A DNA stretch of 19,746 bases from a virus (Duplodnaviria; Heunggongvirae; Uroviricota; Caudoviricetes). Shown here piece after piece: positions 4,188-18,638 of this stretch. The stretch's first letter is position 1; every line of letters starts with the position of its first letter. The stretch is from positions 1-19,746 of the IMG/VR virus record IMGVR_UViG_2671180921_000033; one strand, written 5' to 3'. The position numbers were made by a program, and so were the translations under genes. Under the pieces are notes generated by a model, which was not told where the DNA came from, ran no database searches, and was given only the letters and a program-made list of their open reading frames with translations.

Positions 4188-4188
4188 G

Positions 4189-5894: not shown

Positions 5895-5965
5895 ATGTCT
5901 AGCATGAAATTGGCCTAAGTTTAATATTAAACGTCTTGCGGGACGCGTAATGTTAACTGGGCTTT
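5895..5965 (+). ncRNA. Possible Sok-like antisense RNA (approximate coordinates)
   Basis: Candidate plus-strand promoter TTGCCT - 17 nt - TAACAT (5862..5890) facing into the hok/mok leader. Ends not defined; inferred from hok/sok architecture. Confidence 0.2.
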
Positions 5966-6245
5966 TCTCTATCTGCCGTTGGTGTTCATGCCCGAGGCAG
6001 ATAGCCTCAAGCACACGCAGCAATTTTACTTAACTATTTTTCCGAAAAATTAATTATTACTAATGCATAGTTTATAAATCACACGATGATATTATAAATC
6101 TAGTGTAAGGGAACATTTAAGTTAAGAATCACATTTTACTAGCCAAAAACATAAAACAGATCTCTTAATAATAAGCAGCTTTTATATAAAAACCACGATG
6201 TGTTTTCATAATAATATGCAGTACCAGCTACTCAGCAATATGAGG

Positions 6246-6764
6246 TTATTCAGTCAAGCTTTTGCGCCCGTACGCACTTCTCAAACTTGCACATGTTTCT
6301 CTAATCCTAACAATTTGCATACAATCAGGTCTTAGAGGTCGGTTGTGAACATCACTATCATATGTCATGGCTTGGCGTAATTCCTTAAACAATTTTGCCT
6401 TATATTTTTCACCACCGGCCCTTTCAATTTCTTTAGCGATAGTAGTTAAACTCTTAACCTCCCTACTCATTTTTGCTAACGCCAGTGTAGGTTCTTTATT
6501 ATTATCTTCAGCCCAGAACTCTAAGGCAAAATCCTCAAGCAACTCCAGTTTTTGTCTAAACTCACCGATCCATTCATTATGAGCATCTTTAATAGCATCT
6601 CCTCTACTTTTTGTGGTTTGGAGATAAGCAATATATGCCGTAATCCCCCATCCAACTAAAACTAAAAACCAAGTTACATACTGATTTTCATCTTTAAACA
6701 AAGAAAAAAACTTACACCAAAAGTCTGCACTCCAAGTACAGACCTGGATACTTGAATTAGCCAT
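6246..6764 (-). CDS. Single-pass membrane protein (172 aa), fourth gene of the STAS/GHKL cassette
   Basis: Hydrophobic helix WFLVLVGWGITAYIAYL near the N-terminus, followed by a charged helical region. Its start overlaps the upstream gene stop as ATGGCTAA. Confidence 0.55.
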   Translation of the reverse strand: MANSSIQVCTWSADFWCKFFSLFKDENQYVTWFLVLVGWGITAYIAYLQTTKSRGDAIKDAHNEWIGEFRQKLELLEDFALEFWAEDNNKEPTLALAKMSREVKSLTTIAKEIERAGGEKYKAKLFKELRQAMTYDSDVHNRPLRPDCMQIVRIRETCASLRSAYGRKSLTE

Positions 6765-7071
6765 GAGATACCTTTATAGCGTCCTCGATATATTCATTTA
6801 TCTCGTCAATTAACTCAGGTTCTTCTTCTGAGATAAATTTAATCCCTTTAACCTTATCAGGACTCACGCCACGCCTAATCAATCCGCCAAAGCACTCCTC
6901 CAAGAAAGAAGAACCATACCCCTCCGTTCCATCAAGGTCTATTGTTAGATCTGGTGAATGTTTAAGCTCTCTTTCTACCCACTCACGAAACTCCTCACCA
7001 GAAGCGGGCCCCAATCTTTTAAAACGAGGTCCTGGGCAAGGATAACGACTGGCTACTTTTATAATTTTCAT
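6757..7071 (-). CDS. Small STAS-like (DUF4325-like) protein, 104 aa
   Basis: ATG at 7071, 1 nt after the GHKL gene stop. Segment DLTIDLDGTEGYGSSFLEECFGGLIRRG resembles the STAS-like core of anti-sigma-antagonist-type proteins. The domain call is by eye. Confidence 0.45.
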   Translation of the reverse strand: MKIIKVASRYPCPGPRFKRLGPASGEEFREWVERELKHSPDLTIDLDGTEGYGSSFLEECFGGLIRRGVSPDKVKGIKFISEEEPELIDEINEYIEDAIKVSHG

Positions 7072-7072
7072 A

Positions 7073-7552
7073 CTACTCAGTTTCCACCTCACAAGGAATT
7101 GTCCATTCAATTATAGTACCATTAACAGAGCTTTTGTAATCTCTAAGCACTTCGTTAATAATGCCAGTTTTCCCTTTGTAAATATAGCGCCCTTTTGATG
7201 AAAAAATCCCCATAAAACCATCACCTATTGAATCGATTACCGATTTGATATCATTCAAGCCTTTACCTCGGTTCAGCTCCCCAGTCCTCGTTTCCTGAAG
7301 TAACGTGGAAGCCTTTATATAAGTAGAATCCTTTACATTTGCTAATGGAACTCTAAGTTTTTTGAAGATGTTCATTAGCACACTTACACCTTGTGTTTTA
7401 GGCAATGTTGAAGGTATTCCCACTCCTTTATCACATATTACCACTGTAAGATTTTTGTCATGTATGCCAGCAAAGGTCCACCACTTAGCTGTTTCGTCAT
7501 CTTCCGTATGCATTAAATCATCAACATAAGCATGCTCGACAGAATTAGACAT
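7073..7552 (-). CDS. GHKL-family ATPase, anti-sigma-factor/serine-kinase-like (159 aa)
   Basis: Bergerat-fold motifs in order: N-box NSVEHAY, G1 VVICDKGVGIP, G2 RGKGLNDI, G3 NGTIIEW. Size similar to RsbW/SpoIIAB-type kinases. Confidence 0.65.
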   Translation of the reverse strand: MSNSVEHAYVDDLMHTEDDETAKWWTFAGIHDKNLTVVICDKGVGIPSTLPKTQGVSVLMNIFKKLRVPLANVKDSTYIKASTLLQETRTGELNRGKGLNDIKSVIDSIGDGFMGIFSSKGRYIYKGKTGIINEVLRDYKSSVNGTIIEWTIPCEVETE

Positions 7553-7556
7553 GGCC

Positions 7557-8240
7557 TCAGTAAAGCCACGGTATAATTTTTTTTGATGATTTTCTTTCTA
7601 ACTCTTTTTTTATTTCCACCATCATTTCTTTTGCTAAAAGAGGCTCAGAACAAGAACCTGATGTATATTTCCAAAAAGTCACATCATCATAACTTTCAGT
7701 TTCTCTTTTAGGTTTCCTTAATAGATCATAGAAACCGACTTGATTCAAAATGCTTTCAATTTTCTTGTCTTTCGGATGTGAAAACCCTATGGCATTTACT
7801 CCAAATTCACTTTTCTTAATAAGCACATCAACTTCAGCGAGAAAAGATAACATAGCAGCTGCACTTATATATTTAGTTGAAGAAAAATCTATATAAACAC
7901 GATTATTCTTCAACACGCAATCGCGTAAATTATTTAAAAATTTATTCATGATTTCAAAATCACGATCGTTGTAATAATTAATAGATATCGGAGCAGAAAA
8001 AACCACCCTTTTATTACTTGTTGTCAACTTTTTCTTCGAGACTCGTAGCTTACGAGTGCGTTTGTAATATTCCAGTTTTCTCTTCGCATTTTCTACTCCT
8101 TCCCAATCCGTGCTTTTCAGAGAATTAAATATCCCCCTCTTCAGTTTCGAAACTTGCCCGCGATAGTTTAGTTTTTGAACTTTTCTTCTTTTTTGCAGAT
8201 TCATAAATATTTTCACATTTGATAACATCGCAGATATCAT
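7557..8240 (-). CDS. Protein with a basic N-terminal region and a STAS-like domain (227 aa), first gene of the cassette
   Basis: Lys/Arg-rich N-terminus (KRRKVQKLNYRGQVSKLKRG...KRTRKLRVSKKKL), then RVYIDFSSTKYISAAAMLSFLAEVDVL...NAIGFSHPKDKKIESILNQVGFYDLL, which resembles a STAS/anti-sigma-antagonist fold. No clear SD, so the start is uncertain. Confidence 0.5.
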   Translation of the reverse strand: MISAMLSNVKIFMNLQKRRKVQKLNYRGQVSKLKRGIFNSLKSTDWEGVENAKRKLEYYKRTRKLRVSKKKLTTSNKRVVFSAPISINYYNDRDFEIMNKFLNNLRDCVLKNNRVYIDFSSTKYISAAAMLSFLAEVDVLIKKSEFGVNAIGFSHPKDKKIESILNQVGFYDLLRKPKRETESYDDVTFWKYTSGSCSEPLLAKEMMVEIKKELERKSSKKIIPWLY

Positions 8241-8476
8241 ATTTCACATGAAAAATTTTTTGTAGCCCCTCCATCAAAGAAAATCGCTGCCTTTATCAAA
8301 AACATTTCGAAATTGTCAGCAACTTAACGTTCCCCCACCCCAACAGTAAAATTGATCCCACTAGCTCAAGTGAAAGTCACCCCGTAACATCCTGTTGATA
8401 CCCAGCGCCTGCGCTTTCGCTCTTACAGCATAACAAGAACGATCGATCCCCCATATGCTTTCTACCGTCAACGTGC

Positions 8477-8938
8477 CTACACACTGACCTGAGTGCCATG
8501 ATTTCCCTCATGCATAACCTGTTCACCGAATACCTCTCGAAAACCATTCTGGTAAAACGCCAGTACGCGCTGCATAGCTTCGCTCCTCCGACACTCGCGA
8601 CAGATTATGTTCAGACGCCTGTCATAGCGGCGTATTTCTCCGTCTGGTAATGAATAAACCAGGTCCGGGTCGCTCTTTTTTTTCACTGCTGCTTTCGACA
8701 TCTTTTTGCGGGCCTTTATCCAGTCCTTACGTGCCTGTTCAGACGGAAATAACCCGTAGCCGGAGTTGTATAAATCGCCACTGGCAACCAGCTCTCTGGC
8801 AAGAACACTCATCAGATACCTTGTCGCACCTGTCTTAGCTTCCAGTTGTCGTAACGTCTCGCGCCCACTCTGGCGCACGAGCTCAACAACCTTCCCCTTA
8901 ATTTTTTCCCGCTCTTCTTGTGTAAATACTTTTGCCAT
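8477..8938 (-). CDS. Hypothetical nin-region phage protein (154 aa)
   Basis: ATG at 8938 preceded by SD GGAGG. Co-oriented with the replication genes. No family recognised. Confidence 0.5.
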   Translation of the reverse strand: MAKVFTQEEREKIKGKVVELVRQSGRETLRQLEAKTGATRYLMSVLARELVASGDLYNSGYGLFPSEQARKDWIKARKKMSKAAVKKKSDPDLVYSLPDGEIRRYDRRLNIICRECRRSEAMQRVLAFYQNGFREVFGEQVMHEGNHGTQVSV

Positions 8939-8953
8939 AAGCGCCTCCGGCAA

Positions 8954-9715
8954 TCACTTTTCCGATGCAACATGGCGGGAAGAATCAGTAATCTGTCGTA
9001 CAATATCCCTGTGCTTGTTCAACTCACGCAGCGCGGCGCAGACACGCTCCCACTTCTGGACATGATTTTTCGCCCGACGCAGTTCGCGGTTTGCCATATG
9101 CAGTGATGGTAAAACCAGGTCATCCGCTCGCGTTTCAGTAAACGATGGCAGCGACTGCACAATGTCCGCCACAGTTTCTGTTTTAATATCTTCCTGTGTT
9201 GCAGCCTCCTGTACTGGTAACGCAACACCTGCGGGCTGAGGAAAGGCCTTACCATCAGTTTCCGCTACCGATGCTGCTTTCGGCTCTGCTGGTAAATTAT
9301 CGCCCGGTATGCAGTAACGAAATTTACCGCCCTGATTTACGCGAATCAGACGACCTTTGCTGATTGCCATTGCCAACGTTGAAGCCACTTTGCGTGATGT
9401 GGTACCAAAAAATGTAGCCAGCTCATCCGCCGTTTGTGGTCCACGTTGTTCAATCGTCGCAGTTAAATCGCTCTCTGAAATTTTCGCGACTGTTGCCGTG
9501 GTAGTTTCTTCCGGCAGTTCTGCCGGCGCTGGCTGTTCCTGCTGAACGTTGTTATCAGCCACACGCCAGGTGTACGCGCTTTTATCAACGAAACCAGCCT
9601 TTTTCAGTTCCCATAGTTCGTTCAGCACTTCTTCACGACTGATATCAAGTCGCGCAGCAAGTTCTATGGATGTGGCTTTTCCCATCGCTTTCAGTGCGTC
9701 AAAAACAGTCTCCAT
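8954..9715 (-). CDS. Hypothetical phage protein, possibly a winged-helix DNA-binding protein (253 aa)
   Basis: ATG at 9715 preceded by SD GGGAGG. Two segments ([26 protein letters not shown] and [29 protein letters not shown]) look like HTH/winged-helix units. Confidence 0.5.
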
Positions 9716-9737
9716 TAAAATTTCCTCCCGGTAAAAA

Positions 9738-10484
9738 TCACTTCGCAATTCCTGGCTGGACGACATTCGGACGCCAGCTCTCCCAGTTAAAATTCACCCA
9801 TCGCCCGCCGTTCATGGTCATGCGGTCCATCACTCGCTCTCCCAGAAGGGTGCTCATCGCGGTATGGTTCAGGTTCGTCAGCATCCCGACACTGCGCATC
9901 GAAGCCGTTCTGCGGTCGACTATCTGGTTCAGAGTGACCTGTTCATTGCGTGTATCACGCTGCATGCCAATCTCATCCAGAACCAGCAGGTCAACGTTGC
10001 ACAATCCCTGCAAAAACTTTTCACCCGAGTTTTTGTTGTCGTAGCTGCCGTGCAACGCCAGCATCACATCAGCCACAGTGATCACAATCACACTCCGCCC
10101 CTTCGCCAGAAGATGGTTGCCGATGGCTGCCGCAAGGTGATTTTTTCCGGTACCCGGCTTACCGCTGAACACGAAATTTGTGCACCTGGTCATAAGTTCG
10201 TCCGCGATGGATTTTGCATGACTCAGCGCGTGGCGTTGCCCGTCGTTCTGCACCCGGTAATTCGCAAACGAACACTTCTGGTGCAACGGCTGGATACCCG
10301 AACGGTTCAGAATTTTTTCCGCATGAATCTTGTTATTCAGGCGATTAATCTCCTCACTACGTTTTCGCCCTTCAGCAAGCCACCACTCGTACCACTCTTC
10401 CCGTGTCCGGTACGGCGCGGTTACATGCTGTGGGGCCAGTCTGCGGATACGTTCAAGAACACCGCTTGCCGCAATATTTTTCAT
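9738..10484 (-). CDS. DnaC-like helicase loader (IstB-like AAA+ ATPase), lambda P equivalent
   Basis: Walker [18 protein letters not shown] and Walker [10 protein letters not shown]. Position immediately downstream of the O-like initiator. Confidence 0.85.
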
Positions 10485-10490
10485 GGTCAG

Positions 10491-11456
10491 TTACCCCCTG
10501 AAGCCTGGCGGAATTTCGGTATCCGGTTCAGAAATGTGATTCACACAACGCTGTGCCGGACCACGTCCCAGACGAATCACCAGCTCATCCCATTTTTCGC
10601 GGAGCTTTGACGGACTCATGATGTTTTTTACCCAGAATGAATCCCGCTGTACCCGACCAAACATTTCGCAAATTTGCCTGTGCGTTCTGCCATCCAGCAT
10701 CCGCATTGTGCGCACGTCATTGGCCCACGCGGTCCAGTTGGGTTCTTTCGGACGCGCGATCTCACCATCATCGCTGGCGGCCTGCTCGTAAAGACTCACG
10801 ATTCGTCCCCAGATCCACTGCGCACACGCCAAATCTTCCTGGCTGCCCCACTGGCGTTTTTTCGCACTGAACACAACCGCGTCAGGGTGTCGGGTTAAAA
10901 AATCCTGTTCAGCCGTCTGCGGGTCCGGTTGCGAAGCGTCCGGACGAGAAGTGTTTTTATTCTCTGTAGTAATCTCTGTTGTATTCTCTGTAAGATCATC
11001 GGGCCATTTTGACCCGATGACATTGGGTCGTTTTGAACCAATGGAGCGTGTCATTTTGGCCTCTTCCATCGTGTCATTTTGACCTGATGGAGCGGCGCAT
11101 TTTGACCTGATGGATTCGCTCGCTTTGCCACCATCTAAAAGCTCGCTCTCGTAATTAATCGTGTAAAAATTAGTCATGTCACGCTTTGATTTATTGAGCT
11201 TTTCGCAACGCAAAAGCCCCAGCGTTTTCAGACTTGCAAATGCGCGTTTTAACGTTGACTCTGACCAGAACGGGAACTGTTCCAGCCATTGTTCCGTTGT
11301 GTTATAAATCCAGCGAACACCGTCACACTCCATGCCGGAATTGGTATCTCTCAACCAGTAATGCAGCTGCTGCAACACGATGGCTTCGTTCAGACCTATT
11401 TTCATCGCCAGCTGCGTGTTTATAACCAGCGGGCGTTCAGCAAAAAGGAGCTTCAT
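10491..11456 (-). CDS. Replication initiator / replisome organiser (lambda O equivalent)
   Basis: N-terminal winged-helix-like segment LNEAIVLQQLHYWLRDTNSG, strong SD GGGGGAAGGG, and an internal iteron array (11001..11115) as in lambda O/ori. Confidence 0.7.
   Translation of the reverse strand: MKLLFAERPLVINTQLAMKIGLNEAIVLQQLHYWLRDTNSGMECDGVRWIYNTTEQWLEQFPFWSESTLKRAFASLKTLGLLRCEKLNKSKRDMTNFYTINYESELLDGGKASESIRSKCAAPSGQNDTMEEAKMTRSIGSKRPNVIGSKWPDDLTENTTEITTENKNTSRPDASQPDPQTAEQDFLTRHPDAVVFSAKKRQWGSQEDLACAQWIWGRIVSLYEQAASDDGEIARPKEPNWTAWANDVRTMRMLDGRTHRQICEMFGRVQRDSFWVKNIMSPSKLREKWDELVIRLGRGPAQRCVNHISEPDTEIPPGFRG
11001..11115. repeat. Iteron array (candidate phage origin) inside the O-like gene
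   Basis: Five copies of CATTTTGACC(C/T)GATGG-like repeats (two degenerate) spaced about 23-24 bp apart from 11005 to 11112, with shorter CTCTGT direct repeats just left of them. Confidence 0.55.
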
Positions 11457-11477
11457 CCCTTCCCCCGGAACACGTTA

Positions 11478-11903
11478 TCAATGCACCACCACGGCATTTC
11501 CTGCCGGACCACCGCGATTCATCTGGTCGAACAGAACGATCGCTGATGCAACGAACTCATCGATATCTTTCACCAGCCGATCCCGTCGCTCGACAATCTC
11601 CCGGTGATACTCCGAACTGTGACTGCGCATTCGGGCCACCAGCGGTGGCGGCATTGCCTTTTCGATCGCTGGTAACAACGCCTGAATTTTTTTAACCGCA
11701 TCAGGGGTGTCTTTCTCCACCCAGCGGAAAATCTTCTGAGTATTGCGAGCCAGGGCTTCTGGGTGTGAATCGTCGTACAGTTCCGGAAACGTCATTCCCA
11801 GCTCAAAATACGCTTTGGTAATCTCTGCAGCCGGAACTTTCTCGCCGTCCGGATGCGCCCAGGCATTCATCGCCATGCGGATGTGTTCATGCTTGATTTT
11901 CAT
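11478..11903 (-). CDS. YdaT-like prophage protein (CII-position gene)
   Basis: Begins MKIKHEHI and ends VVVH, as I recall for Rac YdaT. Start overlaps the upstream gene stop as ATGA. SD GGGAG. Confidence 0.5.
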   Translation of the reverse strand: MKIKHEHIRMAMNAWAHPDGEKVPAAEITKAYFELGMTFPELYDDSHPEALARNTQKIFRWVEKDTPDAVKKIQALLPAIEKAMPPPLVARMRSHSSEYHREIVERRDRLVKDIDEFVASAIVLFDQMNRGGPAGNAVVVH

Positions 11904-12160
11904 GAATCAACTCCCGCAGCTGGTTGTGTGTTAGCCTTAAACTCAGAAGGCAAGCCGTCGGTTGGGTTAGGATAAATATCTGGGCGGATTTCATGCGGGG
12001 TAACTTCCCACTTCATTAGTTGGCATAACGGAATTACCTGCTTTGGGGGAACGCCAAAGCTAAACCATTGCCAAACAGTCTGTTGAGCGACCCCCATATA
12101 ACGACCTATTTCAGCCTGAGTGTATTTCTGCCTAATTTTTTCGCGAGTGCTATCTAGCAT
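11900..12160 (-). CDS. Cro-like / YdaS-like HTH regulator
   Basis: HTH-like segment YTQAEIGRYMGVAQQTVWQWF. Divergent from the repressor gene across the operator region. SD GAGGAGGG. Confidence 0.6.
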   Translation of the reverse strand: MLDSTREKIRQKYTQAEIGRYMGVAQQTVWQWFSFGVPPKQVIPLCQLMKWEVTPHEIRPDIYPNPTDGLPSEFKANTQPAAGVDS

Positions 12161-12196
12161 TTTGCCCTCCTCTAAAAACTATAAGCAAAGCCTACA

Positions 12197-12229
12197 ATAA
12201 AAAACTGTATACGATCAACAGTTTTTTAT
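12197..12229. promoter_or_regulatory. Operator-like inverted repeat in the divergent promoter region
   Basis: Perfect 12-bp arms ATAAAAAACTGT - 9 bp - ACAGTTTTTTAT between the Cro-like and repressor genes. Confidence 0.5.
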
Positions 12230-12268
12230 TGTGATGCTTTTAACAGTATTTACCTGTAAAATTGAATA

Positions 12269-12670
12269 ATGATGAGCGCCCTAGAAGTATCTATGTACAG
12301 AATCAGCAAGCTTCTTCAGGAAACTGGATGGAGCCAGGCTGAGCTTGCCCGTAGAATTGGTGTGACACAACAAACTGTTCAACAATGGGTCAGCGGTAAG
12401 GCTACACCTAAAGCCTCAAGTTTGGATAAACTGGTTGAGGTTTCAGGGCATCCATTGCATTGGTTTTTATTGCCTCCTGAAGAGGGTGAGCAAATTTTCA
12501 CCCCTGACACGATGAAAATTGGTCCTCGCCAACGCGAACTGCTCCAAGCTTTTAGTGCGTTTCCTGAGGAAGACCAAGAAAAAATGCTTCAAGAAATCAA
12601 AGACAAGAAAAAATCAATGGAAGAAACCATTGCTCGGTGGCTGGCTGCACAAAAAAGCCGCCGGGCGTGA
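12269..12670 (+). CDS. XRE-family HTH repressor (PaaR-like; candidate prophage repressor)
   Basis: HTH segment WSQAELARRIGVTQQTVQQWVSGK. First gene of an operon with the antitoxin and toxin below. Start could be the ATG at 12269 or at 12293. Confidence 0.7.
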   Translation: MMSALEVSMYRISKLLQETGWSQAELARRIGVTQQTVQQWVSGKATPKASSLDKLVEVSGHPLHWFLLPPEEGEQIFTPDTMKIGPRQRELLQAFSAFPEEDQEKMLQEIKDKKKSMEETIARWLAAQKSRRA

Positions 12671-12697
12671 CCACAGTACAAGAAGAGGAGTTATGCC

Positions 12698-12889
12698 ATG
12701 GGTACAGCCCTTTCTCCGATAGTTTCAGAATTCGAAACTACCGAACAAGAAAACAGTTACAACGAATGGTTGCGCACTAAAGTAACGTCAAGCCTTGCAG
12801 GCACTCGCCCCGCAATTCCACATGACGAGGTAATGGCTGAAATGGAAAATCTTATTGCTCAAATTGCTGTAACTAACAGGAGCGAGTAA
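12698..12889 (+). CDS. PaaA2-like antitoxin
   Basis: 63 aa, MGTALSPIVSEFETTEQENSYNEWLRTKVTSSLAGTRPAIPHDEV; strong SD AAGAGGAG. Resembles, from memory, the PaaA2 antitoxin of E. coli three-component ParE systems. Confidence 0.65.
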   Translation: MGTALSPIVSEFETTEQENSYNEWLRTKVTSSLAGTRPAIPHDEVMAEMENLIAQIAVTNRSE

Positions 12890-13176
12890 TGTTACCCATT
12901 TTATGGCTACCGTCTGCTCGCGATGATTTGCGTCAGATCATAACTTACATCGCCAAGGAGAACCCACCGGCAGCACGTAGACTAAAAATACGCATTGAAA
13001 CATCGGTATTACCTCTATCTGAGCATCCGTACTTATATCCACCAAGCGAACGGGTTTCTGGATTGAGAGAGATCGTGACCCACCCTAACTACATAATCCT
13101 GTACAGAGTAGCTGCTTCAAGCATTGAGATTGTAAGCGTGACACATTCTCGGCGACAATTTCCCTTCTCTATCTGA
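12889..13176 (+). CDS. ParE/RelE-family toxin
   Basis: 95 aa, MLPILWLPSARDDLRQIITYIAKENPPAARRL...REIVTHPNYIILYRV. Its start overlaps the antitoxin stop by 1 nt (TAATG). Confidence 0.8.
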   Translation: MLPILWLPSARDDLRQIITYIAKENPPAARRLKIRIETSVLPLSEHPYLYPPSERVSGLREIVTHPNYIILYRVAASSIEIVSVTHSRRQFPFSI

Positions 13177-13194
13177 GTTGAACAATTTTCATAC

Positions 13195-13219
13195 TCCCTC
13201 TTTCGAGGGATTTTTTTTT
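13195..13219 (+). terminator. Rho-independent terminator of the repressor-antitoxin-toxin operon
   Basis: TCCCTC-TTTC-GAGGGA followed by nine T residues. Confidence 0.65.
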
Positions 13220-13233
13220 GCCCAAAACAACAA

Positions 13234-13272
13234 TTAAAAACTGTTGACATAAAACAGTTTTTAATTGTAGAT
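13234..13272 (+). promoter_or_regulatory. Second operator-like inverted repeat overlapping a candidate PL-like promoter
   Basis: Perfect 11-bp arms TTAAAAACTGT - 9 bp - ACAGTTTTTAA. TTGACA at 13244..13249 lies inside the repeat, with a weak -10 (GTAGAT/TAGATT) 17-18 nt downstream. Confidence 0.5.
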
Positions 13273-13455
13273 TACATACACCAACCACCCACCCCGCCCC
13301 ACAGAATGTCGGGCAATACTTCGAGTTACCCGGCAGTGGTCAGGGGTTAAGTAGCCAGCCCGAGGCGTAAGAACATGACGGCAGGGTTCAACTTTAATAA
13401 CTATGCAGCAGGTTTTTGTTCCGCTACCCCGGCGTTAAGGGGAAATGAGGTCAGC

Positions 13456-13611
13456 ATGGATACTATCGATCTTGGCAACAGCGAATCTCTGGTATGTGGC
13501 GTGTTCCCCAACCAAGACGGTACGTTCACCGCGATGACGTATACCAAAAGCAAAACGTTTAAAACCGAAGCTGGCGCGCGTCGTTGGGTGGCAAGACATT
13601 CAGGTGAATAA
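13456..13611 (+). CDS. Small early-left protein (51 aa)
   Basis: ATG at 13456 preceded by SD-like AGGGGAAATGAGG. Translation MDTIDLGNSESLVCGVFPNQDGTFTAMTYTKSKTFKTEAGARRWVARHSGE. The ORF-track version is a 78-codon extension. Confidence 0.4.
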   Translation: MDTIDLGNSESLVCGVFPNQDGTFTAMTYTKSKTFKTEAGARRWVARHSGE

Positions 13612-13612
13612 A

Positions 13613-13759
13613 ATGAACGAAACAGAATTAAAACACGTTATCGCTCTACTTCTGGAGGATACAAAACGCCTCCAGCAACTGGAACCAAATGCAGGCACTG
13701 AAGCCCGCATCTTGCTGGCATTGCGCGCTATTGAGTCAGGTCGTGATGATGAAGGTTAA
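13613..13759 (+). CDS. Small early-left protein (48 aa)
   Basis: ATG 2 nt after the previous stop. Translation MNETELKHVIALLLEDTKRLQQLEPNAGTEARILLALRAIESGRDDEG. Below the ORF-track cutoff. Confidence 0.3.
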   Translation: MNETELKHVIALLLEDTKRLQQLEPNAGTEARILLALRAIESGRDDEG

Positions 13760-14040
13760 GCATCATCTAAGTTTTTTACATAGCGCCCATTAGATTCGGT
13801 AACAAGAACTCCGGGATTTTTCTTAACTTTTGAGGCCACTGATTCAGCAAGGTTAGCAACAGATTCTTTGTCTTCATTCTTGCTTGAATATGTATATTCG
13901 GCATTAGGAAGTCGGTAGGTGTTCCCTGAAGAGGTTGTAATCGTTCTGGAGAATCCCTTTGCTTCCATTCGTTCATGAAGCTTATCGTAATCAGCGGAAC
14001 TGGAATCGCGAAGTTCGATCCTGACTGTAAATTTTGCCAT
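13756..14040 (-). CDS. Hypothetical protein (94 aa), oppositely oriented moron inside the early-left arm
   Basis: ATG at 14040 preceded by SD GGAGGA. Translation MAKFTVRIELRDSSSADYDKLHERMEAKGFSRTITTSSGNTYRLP... Its 3' end overlaps the convergent plus-strand ORF by 4 nt. Confidence 0.5.
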   Translation of the reverse strand: MAKFTVRIELRDSSSADYDKLHERMEAKGFSRTITTSSGNTYRLPNAEYTYSSKNEDKESVANLAESVASKVKKNPGVLVTESNGRYVKNLDDA

Positions 14041-14626
14041 TTTATCCTCCATTAAGGTTCTGGGTTAGAAATGGAGACCAACACGCTGCTACGTGTGGTC
14101 GTGCGCCGGACACGGATAAGAATCCGGCACTGACAGTTTACTGAAAAGATATATCCCTGAAAAATCAGGGCATAACACGAAAGCGCACGGCGAAGTCCTT
14201 CTCCCTTAGAGCTGTCGTTAAATTTAATTCGACCGTGCGCTTCCGGTTGTGGCAATCCGCGAAATGGCGCGGCGGTAAGTATGGCAGGGGTTATTTCTTT
14301 CTCCTGGTTAGGACGCCGGGTTGTCAGGTTGACCATACGCCTGAGTGACAACCCCGTCACAACATCTCCATGTTTGTTGGTTGGCACCGGGAACTTTGGC
14401 GGAATCAGTTTTTGCTTCGCTACTGCTCTTCCGCCCTTTTTTAAAGTGAATTTTGTGATGCGGTGAATGCGGCTCAGCGCACGCGGAACAGTTAAAAACA
14501 CAAGTGTTATGGGTGAATCATCCGGCGTTAATTGTTAACTGGTTAACGTCACCTGGAGGCACCAGGCACCGCATCAACAAAGTTCACTTCGGTGATGAAA
14601 GGTAGAGAAAATGTTGAATGTAGCTA

Positions 14627-14655
14627 TTGAAAACCTGAACGGGTGGAATTATAGT
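14627..14655 (+). promoter_or_regulatory. Second PR'-like promoter (homologous to the region downstream of Q)
   Basis: TTGAAA - 17 nt - TATAGT. The following roughly 250 bp align in patches with the reverse complement of 2100..2370. Confidence 0.4.
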
Positions 14656-14715
14656 GCATCCGCACCTCATAAAACGGGTGTCGGGCGTGGAAACCCGATG
14701 TTCACTAACGCGCAT

Positions 14716-14739
14716 AACCGCGCTCAGGCGGTTTTTTTA
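14716..14739 (+). terminator. tR'-like intrinsic terminator, second copy
   Basis: AACCGC-GCTCAG-GCGGTT followed by TTTTTTTA; near-identical to the minus-strand terminator at 2261..2283. Confidence 0.6.
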
Positions 14740-14907
14740 TGCGTAATGCACAGCCACATTCAGATTATGGTGGGACGTGCAGGGCAGCCGCAAGGCTGGC
14801 CGGGTTCGTTAGTGACCGGTATTTCCACCCCTGTACGTCTCACCACCCTTATGGTCGTGGAAAACCTTGGTGGTGAGTTAATCAAATTCACTAACGAGGC
14901 TGCTATC

Positions 14908-15462
14908 ATGGCTACTATCCCTACCCTTTCTCACCCTGACGTAACCATCAAAAATGGTCGCGCTGTCACTACGTCTGTTGCGGTTGCAGAGTTCTTCCGC
15001 AAAATGCACAAGGACGTTTTGCGCAAAATTGAAACGCTAGAATGCTCTGAAGATTTTAACGAGCGCAATTTTACGCCCGTTACCTACACCGACGCCAAAG
15101 GCGAAAAACGACCAATGTACCAAATCACCAAAAACGGCTTCGTTTTCCTGGTGATGGGTTTCACCGGCAAAAAAGCCGCCGCATTCAAAGAAGCCTACAT
15201 CGCTGAGTTCGACCGCATGGAGGCAGAGCTGCGTCAGAATAACACCCCGCCCGCTGACAAAATTATTCCGGGTGATGGTCGCACTCTCGTTGTTCACTTC
15301 GACGAACACGGCAACATCAGATTCACCGAAACCGTTCCTGACGGCGCTCTCGTCTGTACCCTGGATACCTTCCGCTTTTATCTGGAGAAACAGGGCTGGA
15401 CTCTTGTTAACCGTAGCGCAATTAAAAATATGACCGTCGAACAGTTGCTGGGTATTAAATAG
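14908..15462 (+). CDS. Rha-family phage regulatory protein (antirepressor)
   Basis: ATG at 14908 with SD GAGG. Translation MATIPTLSHPDVTIKNGRAVTTSVAVAEFFRKMHKDVLRKIETL...FNERNFTPVTY...ITKNGFVFLVMGFTGKKAAAFKEAYIAEF matches the Rha pattern. The ORF-track 5' extension to 14611 runs through a promoter and terminator and is rejected. Confidence 0.85.
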   Translation: MATIPTLSHPDVTIKNGRAVTTSVAVAEFFRKMHKDVLRKIETLECSEDFNERNFTPVTYTDAKGEKRPMYQITKNGFVFLVMGFTGKKAAAFKEAYIAEFDRMEAELRQNNTPPADKIIPGDGRTLVVHFDEHGNIRFTETVPDGALVCTLDTFRFYLEKQGWTLVNRSAIKNMTVEQLLGIK

Positions 15463-15508
15463 TTTTCCGGGATTTTCTTAATACGACAAATTCATTAAGG
15501 AGATAATT

Positions 15509-15730
15509 ATGATTGCTCATCACTTCGGAACCGATGAAATACCGCGTCAGTGTGTAACGCCCGGTGATTACGTTATGTATCAGGGAAGAACGTATGTTGC
15601 ATCTGTCAATGAAATCAAAAAACACCGGCTTTATATCCGGGGATTCTGCACTCAGCATTGCATTAAGGACACCATGATTAAGGTCTTCCTCGGTCGTGAC
15701 GGATTGCCCGCAAAAGCGGAATCATGGTGA
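15509..15730 (+). CDS. Small protein (73 aa) at the position and size of Rac KilR
   Basis: Strong SD AAGGAG 6 nt upstream of the ATG. Translation [32 protein letters not shown]... The KilR-like call rests on size and synteny, not on a verified alignment. Confidence 0.45.
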
Positions 15731-15871
15731 CGGGCAATTAAATGCGGAATCAGATTATATTTCCGTTATGACCGGATAAAACACAAAATTTATAAAACAC
15801 ACATTAACCATGAATTTATGCCAGCAATGGCAGGGATTTGTTCACCCTGAAAATGGTAATGAGGTTTATCA

Positions 15872-18325
15872 ATGAACGCTGATAATAAAGAAATTGCACT
15901 ATATTACGAAGCCAAAAATGACAAAGTCAGAAAACGCCTTGGAATTAAAGGCGGTTTTTGCTGGCGCACAGCAAAAAAATTATCGGTTGCAATATCACAC
16001 GGTATTGTCGCAATGGACGATGCCGGATTTGACGAAGAGGATTTTAAAAAACCCGTCCGCGTCCATTTACCCGTTGTGAATGACCTTCCTCCGGAAGGCG
16101 TGTTTGATACCGAATTCTGCAACCGATACGAAAAAGGCGGGGAAGATGGTATCACAATGGTACTTATCGCACCCTCGCCCTCTGTTCAGGACAAACCAGC
16201 CAGCACTGACAATACCAACGTCAACGGCGAAGACATGACTGAGATTGAGGACAATATGCTTCTGCCGGTTTCAGGTCAGATTCTGCCTGTTCGATGGCTG
16301 GCACAGCACGGCAGCGAAAAACCGGTCACGCACGTTTCACGGGACGAGCTGCGCGCATTACATAACGCACAGGAAGAAAAACTTCCCACTGTTACCGTGC
16401 TGGCCATCTCAAATAAAGCAGTGCAACTCGAACCGCTGGAGATTCGGGATTTGTACAAACTGGTGCGGGACACTGACAAGGTTTTTCCCGCCCCCGTAAA
16501 TTCAGACCTGGGGTTTATGACCGCCTTCATCGAAGCATACCTGGACGCTGACTACACCGATCGCGGTCTGCTTACAAAAGAGTGGATGAAGGGAAATCGT
16601 GTTTCGCGCATCAGCCGCACACCATCCGGCGCTAACGCTGGCGGCGGTATTCTTACCGATCGCGGCGAAGGTTTTGTACACGATAGTGCATCACTGGCGC
16701 GCGACGTAGCCACTGGCGTGCTGACCCGCTCAATGGACGTGGACATTTACAATCTTCATCCCGCGCACGCTAAACGCATTGAGGAAATTGTCGCTGAAAA
16801 TAAACCTCCCTTTTCTGTGTTTTTCAGCAAATTCATCACCATGCCTGGCGGGATGGACTATTCCCGCGCCATCGTGGTTGCCTCCGTGAAAGAAGCACCG
16901 GTTGGTATAGAGGCTATGCCCCACCGCGTCACCGAATATCTGAATAAAGTGCTGACCGAAACCGATCATGCCAACCCTGATCCGGAAATCGTGGATATTG
17001 CCTGCGGTCGCTCCTCCGCCCCGATGCCGCAGCGTGTAACAGAAGAAGAAAAACAGGATGATGAAGAAAAACCGCAACCATCTGGTGCAATGGCAGATGA
17101 ACAGGCAACGGCTGAAGCAATGGAGCCGGATACAACTGAACATCGCCAGAACACGCAATCGCTTGATGCTCAGGCACAGGTAAATTCTGTTGATGCGAAA
17201 TATCAGGAACTGCGGGCAGAACTCCATGAAGCCCGGAAAAACATTCCATCAAAAAATCCTGTCGATGCCGATAAATTGCTTGCTGCATCACGTGGTGAAT
17301 TTGTTGAGGGGATTAGCGACCCGAACGATCCGAAATGGGTGAAGGGGATTGCAACACACGATACTGTGAACCAGTGCCAGCAAGAATCGGAACAGAACGA
17401 CCAGAAAGCGGGACAAAACAGCCCGGATGCGCAACAAAACGAGCCAGAAGCGATACATCCGGAGCCGGAAGCGCAACACGTGCAGGAAAAACCATGTAAT
17501 GCTTGCGGGAAACATGGCGGCGGCAACTGCCCTGACTGTGGCACAGTGATGGGTGACGCAACACACCAGGAAATGTTCAATGAAGAGAATCAGCCTGAAG
17601 TTCAGGAAAATAATCCGGAGGAAATGGAAGGCTCTGCGCATCAGCACAAGGAGAACTCTGGTGGCAATCAGCATCATGCCAGCGATAGTGAAACTGGCGA
17701 GACGGCAAATCCCTTAATTAAGGTGACTGGTCATCATAAATATAAGTCCACCAGCAAAACGTGGTATCACCTGATGATCGACCTTGAGACGATGGGAACC
17801 AACACCAATGCGCCCATCGTGGTTATTGGGGCGGTTTTCTTCGACCCGCAGACAGGGAAAATCGGGCCGGTATTTTATATCGTTATCAGTCTGACTGACG
17901 CAATGAATACAGGAGCTGTTCCTGACGGTGGAACCATCGAATGGTGGCTGAAGCAGTCCAGTGAAGCCAGAGCTGCCATTTTAACAGACCAGGTGAAACT
18001 GAAAGATGCCCTTTTGCGCTTTCGGGAATTCGTCAATGAACACTCTGATGAAAAATTCGTTCAGGTGTGGGGGAATGGTGCAACGTTCGATAACTCAATT
18101 TTGCGCACCTCATACGAACGCCTGGGCATCCCCTGCCCGTGGCATTACAGCAACGATCGTGATGTACGCACGATCGTTGAGCTGGGGAAAACCATAGACT
18201 TCAATGCCAGAAGCGTAATTCCATTCGAAGGCGTACCCCACAATGCGCTGGATGACGCCCTTCACCAGGCAAAATACGTTACAGCCACTATTCAAAAACT
18301 GATCCCGAGTCAGGCTGATTTTTAA
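15872..18325 (+). CDS. RecE-like large protein whose C-terminal domain is a DEDDh 3'-5' exonuclease (817 aa)
   Basis: N-terminal two-thirds resemble, from memory, the Rac RecE N-terminal region (for example [50 protein letters not shown]). The last roughly 190 aa carry DEDDh motifs [20 protein letters not shown] and [12 protein letters not shown]. Confidence 0.7.
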
Positions 18326-18389
18326 TGTTCAACCCCGGTCGTCGCCCACCAGCTATAGTGGCGGCGACCATGATTAACAAACAACGCTC

Positions 18390-18638
18390 ATGGCAAGACT
18401 TATTCTGCTCACTGAGTGGGCAAAAGAGGAATTCGGCGATCCGATCCCTGCTCCGGGCACGTTAAGTAAATACGCTAAAGCCGGAATGATATTTCCTCTT
18501 CCCAAAAAAGTTGGAAGACGCTGGCGAGTGGATCCGCGAGCTCGCTTTGTCGGAATGGTAAACAAGCCGGAGGTGATCGCCACAGATCACCCAGCATTGA
18601 AGAGGATACTGGAAGATGGCGCGCCCGCGAAAATATAA
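18390..18638 (+). CDS. xis: Excisionase (lambda Xis-like)
   Basis: 82 aa, LLTEWAKEEFG...GMIFPLPKKVGRRWRVDPRARF parallels the lambda Xis core. 3' end overlaps the integrase start. Confidence 0.75.
   Translation: MARLILLTEWAKEEFGDPIPAPGTLSKYAKAGMIFPLPKKVGRRWRVDPRARFVGMVNKPEVIATDHPALKRILEDGAPAKI

What the first reader, a model, noticed from the sequence alone, without database searches (positions are those of the whole stretch)
12197..13264. Two copies of a perfect AAAAACTGT-N9-ACAGTTTTT inverted repeat flank the repressor operon
One copy lies in the divergent promoter region (12197..12229). The other (13234..13264) lies just after the operon terminator and overlaps a TTGACA -35 facing the early-left genes. 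This is an OR/OL-like arrangement with a single operator type. The CTGT/ACAG core mimics a LexA box but the spacer is 9 bp, not 8.
Basis: seen in the sequence. Interest (0 to 1): 0.45.

Follow-up and report, generated by a model that had tools for sequence, protein, structure and literature searches.

The report
Prophage repressor operators at OR and OL
The two palindromes are real, but each is a pair of adjacent 15-bp binding sites for a small prophage repressor and its Cro-like partner, arranged around the early promoters as in phage lambda; this is an uncharacterised specificity variant of a known prophage switch, not a LexA site.

Summary
Observation confirmed. AAAAACTGT-N9-ACAGTTTTT occurs exactly twice (12200-12226, 13236-13262; 0.04 expected). 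Each copy extends to a perfect 39-bp palindrome (12194-12232, 13230-13268).

The OR/OL reading is supported. The parse as one 27-bp operator that mimics a LexA box is not.

The conserved unit is a 15-bp site, ACA(A/G)N-N5-N(C/T)TGT. The window has three at OR (12194, 12218, 12243) and two at OL (13230, 13254). Within-site spacing never varies; between-site spacing is 23 or 24 bp. In E. coli variants 9% diverged, 0 of 75 operator positions changed against 20 of 157 other non-coding positions.

The repressor (133 aa) has a 434-like HTH (helix TQQTVQQ) fused to the C-terminal domain of PaaR2. It heads a paaA-parE toxin-antitoxin operon, very probably the CP-933M homologue of the studied CP-933P switch, whose operators are different. 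Repressor helix, Cro helix and half-site co-vary.

No LexA box is present. This is a new member of a known kind; moderate interest.

The parts
12194..12208 (.). OR1: 15-bp operator ACAATAAAAAACTGT. It fills the spacer of the rightward-type promoter PR (which faces ydaS) and touches its -10.
   Evidence: Exact match to ACARN7YTGT. Same offset (-75, or -74 in L061, from the repressor ATG) in 6 of the 7 homologous loci; L007 is offset at -82. ACA/TGT columns are invariant. Unchanged in 9%-diverged E. coli variants.
12218..12232 (.). OR2: 15-bp operator ACAGTTTTTTATTGT, the exact reverse complement of OR1. It abuts the PR -35 and the weak -35 region of the repressor promoter.
   Evidence: (offset -51 in 6 of the 7 homologous loci; L007 has no exact site there).
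12243..12257 (.). OR3: weaker 15-bp operator ACAGTATTTACCTGT (one half-site is ACAGG). It overlaps the first base of the repressor promoter's -10.
Evidence: (offset -26 in 5 of the 7 homologous loci).
13230..13244 (.). OL2: 15-bp operator ACAATTAAAAACTGT, immediately upstream of and overlapping the first T of the PL -35.
   Evidence: (AACA...TGTTGAC invariant in 7 loci).
13254..13268 (.). OL1: 15-bp operator ACAGTTTTTAATTGT, the exact reverse complement of OL2. It fills the PL spacer and overlaps the first T of the -10.
13244..13273 (+). PL-like promoter: TTGACA, 18 bp, TAGATT. It faces ydfA, the Rha/Ash regulator, exonuclease, xis and int.
   Evidence: Promoter scan, 10 of 12 matches. TTGAC is invariant in the OL alignment. 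Positional equivalent of the published PL933P.
12189..12218 (-). PR-like promoter (inferred): -35 TTGATC (12218 to 12213), 18 bp, -10 TAGGCT (12194 to 12189), facing ydaS-ydaT.
   Evidence: The minus strand of OR aligns with the plus strand of OL over 41 nt at 83% (I1). Equivalent hexamers occur in homologues. Only 7 of 12 to consensus, so not listed. An alternative -10, TATAGT, lies at 12184 to 12179.
12257..12262 (+). PRM-like -10, TAAAAT, 6 nt before the repressor ATG (leaderless mRNA inferred). There is no good -35, so dependence on an activator is inferred.
   Evidence: Sequence. TGTA(A/G)(A/G)AT is conserved in 7 loci. PaaR2 and lambda cI are leaderless.
12269..12670 (+). Repressor, 133 aa: N-terminal 434-type HTH (helix TQQTVQQ), disordered linker, C-terminal PaaR2/DicA-type helical hairpin. 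No peptidase domain.
12698..12889 (+). PaaA-type antitoxin (63 aa).
   Evidence: PF21217, E = 2.3e-17.
12889..13176 (+). ParE-type toxin (95 aa), roughly 70% identical to ParE2 of CP-933P.
   Evidence: PF05016. Match to PDB 5cw7_B, E = 3e-36.
13195..13220 (+). Intrinsic terminator of the repressor operon.
11900..12160 (-). Cro-like YdaS (86 aa). Its recognition helix AQQTVWQW matches that of the repressor.
   Evidence: PF15943, helix comparison.
11478..11903 (-). YdaT (CII equivalent), 91% identical to CP-933P YdaT.
11893..11910 (.). YdaT operator TTGATTTTCATGAATCAA at the ydaS/ydaT junction.
   Evidence: Only exact match to the published TTGATT-N6-AATCAA motif in the window (motif from PMC9986795).

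Best explanation
The two 39-bp palindromes are the core of the right and left operators of a lambdoid prophage immunity switch. Each palindrome is two adjacent 15-bp operators, ACA(A/G)N-N5-N(C/T)TGT, 24 bp apart and in mirrored orientation.

Inferred mechanism:
1. One dimer of the 133-aa repressor binds each 15-bp site through a 434-like helix-turn-helix. The two Gln residues at the start of the recognition helix read ACA, and helix position 39 reads half-site positions 4-5.
2. The Cro-like YdaS, which has a near-identical recognition helix, competes for the same sites.
3. At OR, OR1 and OR2 cover the spacer and flank the -35 of the promoter for ydaS-ydaT, so occupancy shuts off the lytic-side genes.
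4. OR2 sits next to the poor -35 of the leaderless repressor promoter and probably activates it.
5. The weaker OR3 overlaps that promoter's -10 and would give negative autoregulation at high repressor levels.
6. At OL, OL2 and OL1 bracket the -35 and fill the spacer of a strong promoter (TTGACA/TAGATT) for the left-arm genes.
7. The C-terminal domain is shared with PaaR2, which is an octamer in solution. Four dimers on OR1, OR2, OL1 and OL2 probably form one octamer that loops out the 1,036 bp carrying the repressor-paaA-parE operon.

Shown here: the sites, their conservation, their positions relative to promoter elements, and the covariation. Inferred: the binding itself, activation, and looping.
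For: 1. Site statistics. ACARN7YTGT has 6 exact hits in the window against 1.58 expected, and 5 of them lie in the two regulatory regions.
2. Conservation of layout. The seven homologous loci with the same recognition helix are E. coli O121, Salmonella, K. michiganensis, Pluralibacter, Morganella, L061 and Arsenophonus.
   - Five have exact sites at -75 (-74 in L061), -51 and -26 from the repressor ATG; Morganella lacks an exact third site, and Arsenophonus has two exact sites at shifted offsets (-82, -33).
   - Six have a pair 23-24 bp apart after the repressor operon; L061's contig ends after the first of that pair.
   - This holds whatever cargo lies between.
3. Conserved columns. The invariant columns are the ACA and TGT triplets of each 15-bp site plus promoter hexamers. 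The N9 spacer and the A/T runs vary.
4. Fine-scale footprint. In E. coli variants 9% diverged, 0 of 75 operator positions changed against 20 of 157 other non-coding positions (P about 4e-5). Substitutions do occur inside the N9 spacers.
5. Protein. Sequence matches the 434 repressor (E = 3e-5) with Gln28, Gln29 and Gln33 retained. The model shows the five-helix XRE fold. The C-terminal ~48 residues are about 62% identical to PaaR2, while the N-terminus is unrelated.
6. Covariation. Repressors with helix ..QQW use ACA(A/G)T. The two loci with ..QRW, in both the repressor and the Cro-like protein, use ACAC(A/G) at OR and, in L003, also at OL. Loci with ..QKW use ACAAC.
7. Independent check. Clostridial HTH fusion proteins with helix VSQQSVQKW have a single ACAAC-N5-GTTGT site upstream in 37 of 44 loci (0.019 expected per locus), with 30 different central pentamers. 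So one 15-bp site is a complete unit.
8. Functional precedent. In CP-933P, PaaR2 and YdaS footprint OR, repress PR and PL, and activate PRM at low dose; PaaR2 is an octamer (PMC8630535). The dicB promoter of Qin has the same layout of two operators flanking the -35.
Against: - No binding data exist for this repressor. All site assignments are computational.
- PR as assigned matches consensus at only 7 of 12 positions and was not called by the promoter scan.
- 434 operators are 14 bp, not 15, so the contact model is an analogy only.
- The covariation is not clean. L055 (K helix) and L058 (R helix) have mixed half-sites.
- No third OL site is seen, although CP-933P is reported to have three.
- The perfect mirror symmetry of the paired sites in E. 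coli is not explained by independent dimer sites.
Confidence: 0.8

Rival explanations
1. One reading: each copy is one operator. A single repressor dimer recognises AAAAACTGT-N9-ACAGTTTTT, with CTGT/ACAG as the contacted core.
For: The pattern is exact and occurs twice. In the E. coli lineage the whole 39 bp is a perfect palindrome at both places. The one difference between OR and OL is mirrored in both arms.
Against: - The pattern is not conserved in homologues with the identical recognition helix. Salmonella has AATTACTGT-N9-ACAATAATT, and Klebsiella has ACTCTTGT-N9-ACAGTTAT.
- The spacer between the inner half-sites is 8 or 9 bp in different loci, while the ACA-N9-TGT spacing never varies.
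- The inner half-site centres are 14 bp apart, off one face of the helix. Within a 15-bp site they are 10 bp apart.
- The invariant outer ACA/TGT triplets lie outside this motif.
- A third site (OR3) and the isolated single sites in Clostridia are complete 15-bp units.
Confidence: 0.07
2. The sites are LexA (SOS) boxes or LexA decoys, tying the switch directly to DNA damage.
For: CTGT and ACAG are the LexA box core. The repressor has no self-cleavage domain, so an SOS input must come from elsewhere. Gifsy prophages use LexA-controlled antirepressors (PMC3121763).
Against: - The spacing is CTGT-N9-ACAG, not N8.
- The window has no exact CTGT-N8-ACAG. The 5 one-mismatch hits equal chance (5.7 expected), and none lies in a regulatory region of the switch.
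- The resemblance disappears in homologues.
- The explanation above accounts for all five sites without LexA.
Confidence: 0.02
3. The 39-bp element is the functional unit. A preassembled, two-fold symmetric tetramer or octamer reads two mirrored sites together, so the palindromy itself is selected and is not two independent sites.
For: - Perfect 15-nt arms at both OR and OL, with a mirrored A/T difference between the two places. That is about 1 in 500 per pair if only the half-sites and an AT-rich centre were constrained.
- The sites are unchanged in 9%-diverged variants.
- Mirror matches slightly exceed direct matches in other genera (59 against 51 of 90). Salmonella OR and Morganella OL reach 8 of 9.
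- PaaR2 is an octamer in solution.
Against: Most homologues do not keep the mirror symmetry, and the spacing varies between 23 and 24 bp. OR3 and the clostridial sites stand alone. This is a refinement of the best explanation rather than a true alternative.
Confidence: 0.15
4. The palindromes act as hairpins (RNA terminators or DNA cruciforms), not as protein-binding sites.
For: The terminator scan lists the OL palindrome on the minus strand as a 16-pair stem followed by a T-rich tail.
Against: - The stem has only 3 G-C pairs.
- Neither palindrome lies within the transcripts predicted from PR, PRM or PL.
- In homologues the two arms are often not complementary, while the 15-bp sites persist.
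- No gene converges on OL from the minus strand.
Confidence: 0.02

Closest known systems
The PaaR2 / YdaS / YdaT switch with paaR2-paaA2-parE2 in prophage CP-933P of E. coli O157:H7 (Jurenas et al. 2021, PMC8630535; Hallez et al. 2010)
   Same: - Same gene order: ydaT, ydaS, OR, repressor, paaA, parE, terminator, PL, left-arm genes.
- ParE roughly 70% and YdaT 91% identical; the repressor's C-terminal domain is about 62% identical.
- Leaderless-type repressor promoter.
- The same DNA resumes right after PL, and the YdaT operator is identical.
- Very probably this is the 'homologue on CP-933M' (paaR1-paaA1-parE1). The module is at least 98.7% identical in typical O157:H7 strains at about 1.17 Mb, and strain E2865 has both modules.
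   Different: [quoted passage not shown]
- The published operators (18-bp palindromes, half-site GTTTAGTAA) are absent here. These are 15-bp ACA(A/G)N-N5-N(C/T)TGT sites, so the two prophages should be heteroimmune.
- OL has two sites here, against three reported there.
- I found no description of these operators in the searchable literature. Hallez 2010 could not be read.
Phage 434 repressor and Cro with their ACAA-N6-TTGT operators
   Same: - Closest solved relative of the HTH domain by sequence (E = 3e-5).
- The recognition helix TQQTVQQ resembles TQQSIEQ, with the three base-contacting Gln residues retained.
- ACA(A) half-sites with an uncontacted AT-rich centre.
- Repressor and Cro share the helix motif. 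The 434 contact assignments are from my own knowledge of the crystal structures.
   Different: - The sites are 15 bp, not 14.
- Position 4 may be A or G.
- There is no C-terminal RecA-dependent cleavage domain; the C-terminus is the PaaR2/DicA type.
- OL has two sites.
Phage lambda OR/OL with CI octamer looping
   Same: - Three sites at the divergent promoters, with the weakest over the repressor promoter.
- 24-bp spacing between OR1 and OR2.
- Operators over PL downstream of the repressor operon, and cargo genes co-transcribed with the repressor.
- Leaderless repressor mRNA.
   Different: - Unrelated oligomerisation domain, 15-bp rather than 17-bp sites, and only two OL sites.
- The loop is about 1.0 kb rather than 2.4 kb.
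- No self-cleavage.
- Looping is inferred here, not shown.
Short non-cleavable lambdoid repressors: DicA (Qin) and GfoR/GtgR (Gifsy), inactivated by antirepressors (PMC10448788, PMC3121763)
   Same: - About 135 aa, an HTH plus a C-terminal ELL..F.ALPE..Q helical domain. DicA is 28% identical (E = 3e-12).
- The downstream operon begins with ydfA.
- Two operators flank the -35 of the left promoter.
   Different: - Different operator specificity (DicA: TGTTAG-type, P22-like).
- An antirepressor for this repressor is not identified. The ORF6N anti-repressor-like gene at 1539-2099 has no LexA box.
LexA SOS box (CTGT-N8-ACAG)
   Same: Contains CTGT and ACAG tetramers around an AT-rich stretch.
   Different: The spacer is one base too long, the two tetramers belong to different operators, and the resemblance is not conserved in homologues.

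Membership tests
PaaR-PaaA-ParE three-component module in a lambdoid immunity region (CP-933P type) | Operon of an HTH regulator, a PaaA-type antitoxin and a ParE toxin | tested here: met
   HTH_3, PF21217 PaaA2 and PF05016 ParE in consecutive genes at 12269-13176. ParE matches PDB 5cw7_B at E = 3e-36.
PaaR-PaaA-ParE three-component module in a lambdoid immunity region (CP-933P type) | Regulator homologous to PaaR2 | tested here: inconclusive
   Only the C-terminal ~55 residues are homologous (42% over 98 aligned residues, about 62% over the last 48). [quoted passage not shown]
PaaR-PaaA-ParE three-component module in a lambdoid immunity region (CP-933P type) | Divergent ydaS-ydaT pair, with the YdaT operator TTGATT-N6-AATCAA at their junction | tested here: met
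   PF15943 and PF06254 hits. YdaT is 91% identical. One exact site at 11893-11910. YdaS itself is not similar to the CP-933P protein.
PaaR-PaaA-ParE three-component module in a lambdoid immunity region (CP-933P type) | Operators of the published GTTTAGTAA type | tested here: not met
   The CP-933P OR and PL sequences have GTTTAGT repeats. The window has ACA(A/G)N-N5-N(C/T)TGT sites instead.
PaaR-PaaA-ParE three-component module in a lambdoid immunity region (CP-933P type) | Repressor binds OR and OL, represses PR and PL, and forms an octamer | not testable with these tools
   Needs protein and reporter assays. Shown for PaaR2 only.
434-type repressor and operator | Five-helix XRE-type HTH domain with Gln-Gln at the start of the recognition helix and Gln at its sixth position | tested here: met
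   phmmer alignment to 2r63/1per. Model helices at 4-19, 23-30, 34-41, 49-59 and 63-67. Foldseek hit to 1pra, rmsd 1.6 A, 32% identity.
434-type repressor and operator | 14-bp operators ACAA-N6-TTGT | tested here: not met
   The sites are 15 bp, ACA(A/G)-N7-(C/T)TGT, in the window and in all homologues.
434-type repressor and operator | C-terminal domain with RecA-stimulated self-cleavage | tested here: not met
   133 aa with no peptidase family hit. The C-terminus is a helical hairpin of the PaaR2/DicA type.
Lambda-type OR/OL operator system | Several operators between divergent repressor and cro promoters, overlapping both promoters | tested here: met
   Three sites at 12194, 12218 and 12243 relative to the PR and PRM elements. 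This is sequence evidence only.
Lambda-type OR/OL operator system | A second operator set over a leftward early promoter beyond the repressor operon | tested here: met
   Two sites bracket TTGACA/TAGATT at 13230-13273, after the terminator.
Lambda-type OR/OL operator system | Long-range OR-OL looping by a repressor octamer | not testable with these tools
   Inferred from the shared PaaR2 C-terminal domain and the published PaaR2 octamer.
LexA SOS box | CTGT-N8-ACAG (CTG-N10-CAG) with an AT-rich centre | tested here: not met
   The spacer is 9. There is no exact LexA core in the window, and one-mismatch hits are at the chance level.
Gifsy/DicA-type short repressors controlled by antirepressors | Repressor of about 135 aa without a cleavage motif, homologous to DicA | tested here: met
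   133 aa; 28% identity to DicA over 111 residues, E = 3e-12.
Gifsy/DicA-type short repressors controlled by antirepressors | A cognate antirepressor, LexA-controlled in Gifsy | tested here: inconclusive
   Candidates are present: ORF6N 'anti-repressor' at 1539-2099 and a Rha/Ash protein at 14611-15462. There is no LexA box and no way to test the interaction.

The most novel reading that the evidence does not exclude
In the E. coli lineage the functional unit is the whole 39-bp perfect palindrome. A preformed, two-fold symmetric PaaR-type tetramer or octamer would read two mirrored 15-bp sites at once, at both OR and OL. Selection would then act on the palindromy itself: the single OR/OL difference is mirrored in both arms, and the elements are frozen in diverged variants. 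That would be a symmetric 'super-operator' variant of lambda-type looping, one that could bind in either loop orientation. A simple recognition code would go with it (helix position 39: Q reads ACA(A/G)T, K reads ACAAC, R reads ACAC(A/G)), and that code extends to clostridial HTH-enzyme fusions.
Probability: 0.18. Interest if true: 0.5.

Novelty: new member of a known kind. Interest (0 to 1): 0.35.

Why it matters
- **Relevance.** This immunity module sits in about one in ten complete E. coli genomes, including typical O157:H7, O121 and O45 Shiga-toxin strains. It controls a ParE toxin-antitoxin pair together with prophage early genes.
- **What is new.** Its sister module in CP-933P has been studied in detail, but the exact sequences recognised there remain unresolved. 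Here the operators can be read cleanly from comparative data: five 15-bp sites with clear half-sites, and a residue-to-base covariation.
- **What it enables.** This gives a directly testable map for footprinting and for heteroimmunity between co-resident prophages. It also gives a handle for testing whether PaaR-type octamers loop DNA.
- **Limits.** It does not change the general picture of lambdoid switches.

Tried and rejected
- **LexA.** I scanned for true LexA cores and read the DNA upstream of the anti-repressor-like gene. Nothing beyond chance, so a LexA role is rejected.
- **Published CP-933P operators.** I compared the GTTTAGTAA-type sequences. They are not present in the window, so this is not the same immunity type.
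- **Solved structures.** I looked for a PaaR2 or PaaR1 structure by sequence. None was found; only generic XRE/434 matches appeared.
- **Literature.**
  - Hallez 2010, the original paaR1/paaR2 paper, is not held.
  - Searches for PaaR1 or CP-933M operators found no description.
  - A CP-933M hit in PMC5829826 concerned only expression changes.
- **Promoter scan.** It confirmed PL but not PR, whose assignment therefore rests on its alignment with PL and on the homologues.
- **Conservation of the mirror symmetry.** Outside E. coli there is only a weak trend.
- **Hairpin or terminator reading of the palindrome.** Rejected: the stem is weak, the region is not transcribed from the mapped promoters, and the arms are not complementary in homologues.
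- **Whole-window search.** No complete E. coli genome carries this exact mosaic, so the source prophage was not identified.
- **Site at 17176-17190.** This sixth ACARN7YTGT hit, inside the exonuclease gene, is taken as chance (1.6 expected).
Full report
**1. The observation**

The pattern AAAAACTGT-N9-ACAGTTTTT occurs at 12200-12226 and 13236-13262 and nowhere else in the 19.7-kb window, even when 3 mismatches are allowed. The expected number is 0.04, and none of 200 shuffles gave two hits.

Each copy is larger than reported. The arms are 15 nt and perfect, giving 39-bp palindromes at 12194-12232 (ACAATAAAAAACTGT atacgatca ACAGTTTTTTATTGT) and 13230-13268 (ACAATTAAAAACTGT tgacataaa ACAGTTTTTAATTGT).

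The first copy lies between divergent genes. The second lies 10 bp after an intrinsic terminator (13195-13220). Its spacer holds TTGACA, which pairs with TAGATT at 18 bp as a 10-of-12 promoter on the plus strand.

**2. The setting**

The window is the left half of a lambdoid prophage. In order it carries:
- Q antiterminator, RusA, DUF968, hok, DUF977, DUF1627, a DnaC-like protein and an O-like protein;
- YdaT (11478-11903, minus strand) and YdaS (11900-12160, minus strand);
- OR;
- an HTH repressor (12269-12670), a PaaA antitoxin (12698-12889) and a ParE toxin (12889-13176);
- a terminator, then OL/PL;
- ydfA, a Rha/Ash regulator, exonuclease, xis and int.

This is the layout of the paaR2-paaA2-parE2 immunity region of CP-933P in E. 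coli O157:H7. There PaaR2, YdaS and YdaT act as equivalents of CI, Cro and CII. PaaR2 and YdaS footprint OR and repress PR and an OL/PL-like promoter after parE2, and PaaR2 is an octamer (PMC8630535).

**3. Not the same immunity type as CP-933P**

I fetched the CP-933P locus through a published primer and compared it with the window.
- ParE is roughly 70% identical, and YdaT is 91% identical.
- The DNA after PL is shared.
- The published YdaT operator, TTGATT-N6-AATCAA, occurs exactly once in the window, at the ydaS/ydaT junction (motif from PMC9986795).
- The repressor aligns with PaaR2 only over its C-terminal part (42% over 98 residues, about 62% over the last 48).
- The repressor's N-terminal HTH and the whole YdaS are unrelated to those of CP-933P.
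- The published CP-933P operators (18-bp palindromes, half-site GTTTAGTAA) are absent from the window.

The module (12161-13300) is at least 98.7% identical in about 445 complete E. coli genomes. These include typical O157:H7 strains at about 1.17 Mb, and one strain carries both modules. It is therefore very probably the 'homologue on CP-933M' (paaR1-paaA1-parE1) mentioned in the literature. That identification is an inference, because Hallez 2010 could not be read. I found no description of its operators.

**4. What the repeated unit really is**

The repressor has homologues at 42-82% identity in Salmonella, Klebsiella, Raoultella, Pluralibacter, Morganella, Rahnella, Pectobacterium, Arsenophonus and others. 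I fetched 14 such loci.

Seven loci share the recognition helix TQQT(V/I)QQ.
- Five have three exact sites matching ACA(A/G)N-N5-N(C/T)TGT at -75 (-74 in L061), -51 and -26 from the repressor ATG. Morganella has the first two, with a degenerate third (ACAGTTTTTATCGGT). Arsenophonus has two exact sites at -82 and -33.
- Six have a pair of such sites 23-24 bp apart beyond the repressor operon; L061's contig ends after the first of that pair.
- The pair is present whether PaaA/ParE, other cargo or nothing lies between.

Salmonella OR reads ACAGTAAATTACTGT-N9-ACAATAATTTACTGT, and Klebsiella reads ACAAGATACTCTTGT-N9-ACAGTTATTTCTTGT.

In alignments of OR and OL, the invariant columns are the ACA and TGT triplets of each 15-bp site plus the promoter hexamers. 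The spacing within a site never varies. The spacing between sites is 23 or 24 bp for the first pair and 25 bp to the third site.

In the window the pattern ACARN7YTGT has six exact hits against 1.58 expected, and only 1 of 200 shuffles reached six. Five of the hits are at 12194, 12218, 12243, 13230 and 13254.

So each 39-bp palindrome is two neighbouring 15-bp operators in mirrored orientation. A third OR site was missed.

**5. Fine-scale footprint**

In two E. coli variants whose module is 9% diverged, all five sites are identical to the window: 0 of 75 positions changed. By contrast 20-21 of the other 157 non-coding positions changed, including positions inside both N9 spacers (12210, 12211, 12213, 13250). 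P is about 4e-5.

**6. The reader of the sites**

- The N-terminal domain matches the 434 repressor best among solved structures (E = 3e-5). The helix TQQTVQQ resembles TQQSIEQ.
- The AlphaFold model (mean pLDDT 81) shows five helices, a disordered linker (residues 76-83) and a C-terminal helical hairpin.
- Fold search returns XRE, SinR and 434 domains.
- From my own knowledge of the 434 complexes, Gln28, Gln29 and Gln33 read ACAA. All three are kept here, as Q34, Q35 and Q39.
- The divergent YdaS has almost the same helix (AQQTVWQW). Likewise the CP-933P pair share their own, different helix. This is what a repressor/Cro pair competing for common sites should look like.

Half-site centres within a 15-bp site are 10 bp apart, one helical turn.

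**7. Covariation**

| Helix position 39 | Loci | Half-site |
|---|---|---|
| Gln | window and seven loci (38 sites) | position 4 only A or G |
| Arg (SQQTVQRW; Cro also ..SRW) | Rahnella L003, L059 | ACAC(A/G) at OR, and at OL in L003 |
| Lys | L004, L005 | ACAAC |

The pattern is not perfect: L055 and L058 are mixed.

An unplanned check supports the 15-bp unit. The locus search also returned 44 clostridial loci that encode ~525-aa fusions of an HTH to an ADP-ribosylglycohydrolase, with helix VSQQSVQKW. Thirty-seven of them have a single ACAAC-N5-GTTGT site (at most one mismatch) within 260 nt upstream, against 0.019 expected per locus. The 37 sites have 30 different central pentamers. So the 15-bp geometry goes with this helix type across phyla, and one 15-bp site is a complete unit.

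**8. How it most likely works**

- **PL.** OL2 ends on the first T of the -35 (TGT|TGACA). OL1 fills the 18-bp spacer and ends on the first T of the -10.
- **PR.** The minus strand of OR aligns with the plus strand of OL (41 nt, 83%). This gives PR as TTGATC, 18 bp, TAGGCT, with OR2 and OR1 in the same positions. PR matches consensus at only 7 of 12 positions, so this assignment is inferred.
- **PRM.** The repressor promoter has the -10 TAAAAT at 12257-12262, 6 nt before the ATG, and no good -35. A leaderless mRNA is inferred, as for PaaR2 and cI.
  - OR2 abuts the -35 region; its centre is about -44. This suggests activation.
  - OR3 overlaps the -10. This suggests autorepression.
- **Looping.** With the PaaR2-type C-terminal domain, four dimers on the four strong sites could form the octamer and loop out 1,036 bp.
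- **Precedent.** DicA of Qin is 28% identical with the same C-terminal motif, and its dicB promoter shows the same layout of two operators flanking the -35.

Binding, activation and looping are inferences. The sites, their conservation and their geometry are shown.

**9. LexA**

The window has no exact CTGT-N8-ACAG. One-mismatch hits are at the chance level (5 against 5.7 expected) and lie elsewhere. The N9 resemblance is lost in the homologues.

The repressor lacks a cleavage domain. It belongs with the short repressors DicA, GfoR and GtgR, which are inactivated by antirepressors. Candidate antirepressor-like genes exist at 1539-2099 and 14611-15462, but without a LexA box. How this switch is induced remains open.

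**10. What remains unexplained**

In the E. coli lineage OR1 is exactly the reverse complement of OR2, and OL2 of OL1. OR and OL differ at one position per arm, and that change is mirrored. Other genera show only a weak tendency (59 mirrored against 51 direct matches of 90), although Salmonella OR and Morganella OL reach 8 of 9. This may reflect a two-fold symmetric tetramer, or it may simply be history.

**11. Verdict**

The parse as a single 27-bp operator that mimics a LexA box is not.

This is an uncharacterised specificity variant of a known prophage switch, with well-supported and directly testable operator assignments. Novelty: new member of a known kind. Interest: about 0.35.

Noticed in passing
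L008-L051 (clostridial MAG contigs), about 90 nt upstream of the HTH gene; for example L010:2396-2410 and L024:2388-2402: Proteins of about 525 aa fuse an XRE-type HTH (helix VSQQSVQKW) to an ADP-ribosylglycohydrolase domain (PF03747). In 37 of 44 loci they carry a single ACAAC-N5-GTTGT palindrome upstream (0.019 expected per locus), with 30 different central pentamers. This looks like an autoregulatory operator of an enzyme-fused regulator.
   Followed up: partly
window 11893-11910: An exact copy of the published YdaT (CII-equivalent) operator, TTGATTTTCATGAATCAA, sits at the ydaS/ydaT junction. YdaT is 91% identical to the CP-933P protein although ydaS is unrelated, so a mosaic boundary lies at the 3' end of ydaS.
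   Followed up: partly
window 12194-12232 and 13230-13268: In the E. coli lineage the paired operators are exact reverse complements of each other at both OR and OL, and the one OR/OL difference (A or T at arm position 6) is mirrored in both arms. Other genera mostly lack this symmetry. No explanation so far.
   Followed up: partly
window 1539-2099 (minus strand) and 2100-2377: An ORF6N 'anti-repressor' gene (phrog_2379, E = 3e-89) lies just downstream of the Q antiterminator and a terminator-like hairpin. There is no LexA box upstream, only a GC-rich one-mismatch match at 2209-2224. It may be the inducer of this non-cleavable repressor, but that is untested.
   Followed up: partly
window 14611-15462 (plus strand): A 283-aa protein with Ash and Rha domains (phrog_995, E = 7e-137) lies in the PL operon, so it would be under direct control of the OL operators.
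   Followed up: no
window 932-1411, 5693-5905, 6757-7110, 13756-14052: Further small cargo genes: a PemK/MazF-like toxin, hok, a DUF4325 STAS-like protein and a GhoS-like protein. With paaA-parE, the half-prophage therefore carries several toxin-antitoxin-type genes.
   Followed up: no
window 13276-13300 and L002:3116-3140: A C-rich leader (CCAACC(A)CCCACCCCGCCCCACAGAA) directly after PL is shared with CP-933P. The CAAC core is invariant, and the flanking C-rich bases largely conserved, in the OL alignment of seven loci. It may be a nut-like or processing signal.
   Followed up: no
L061:2420-2457, L054:4083-4120, L007:2966-3003: In the three cases where the spacer between paired operators is 8 bp rather than 9, the inner right half-site is ACAA, not ACAG. 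None of them therefore creates a true LexA core, CTGT-N8-ACAG. With three cases this could be chance.
   Followed up: no
window 1-19746: No complete E. coli genome holds the whole window as one block (best: 56% covered at 87.5% identity), although the immunity module is about 99% identical to that of STEC prophages. The window is a different mosaic around the same immunity cassette.
   Followed up: partly
window 17176-17190: A sixth exact ACARN7YTGT match (ACAGGTAAATTCTGT) lies inside the exonuclease gene. It is probably chance (1.6 expected per window).
   Followed up: no
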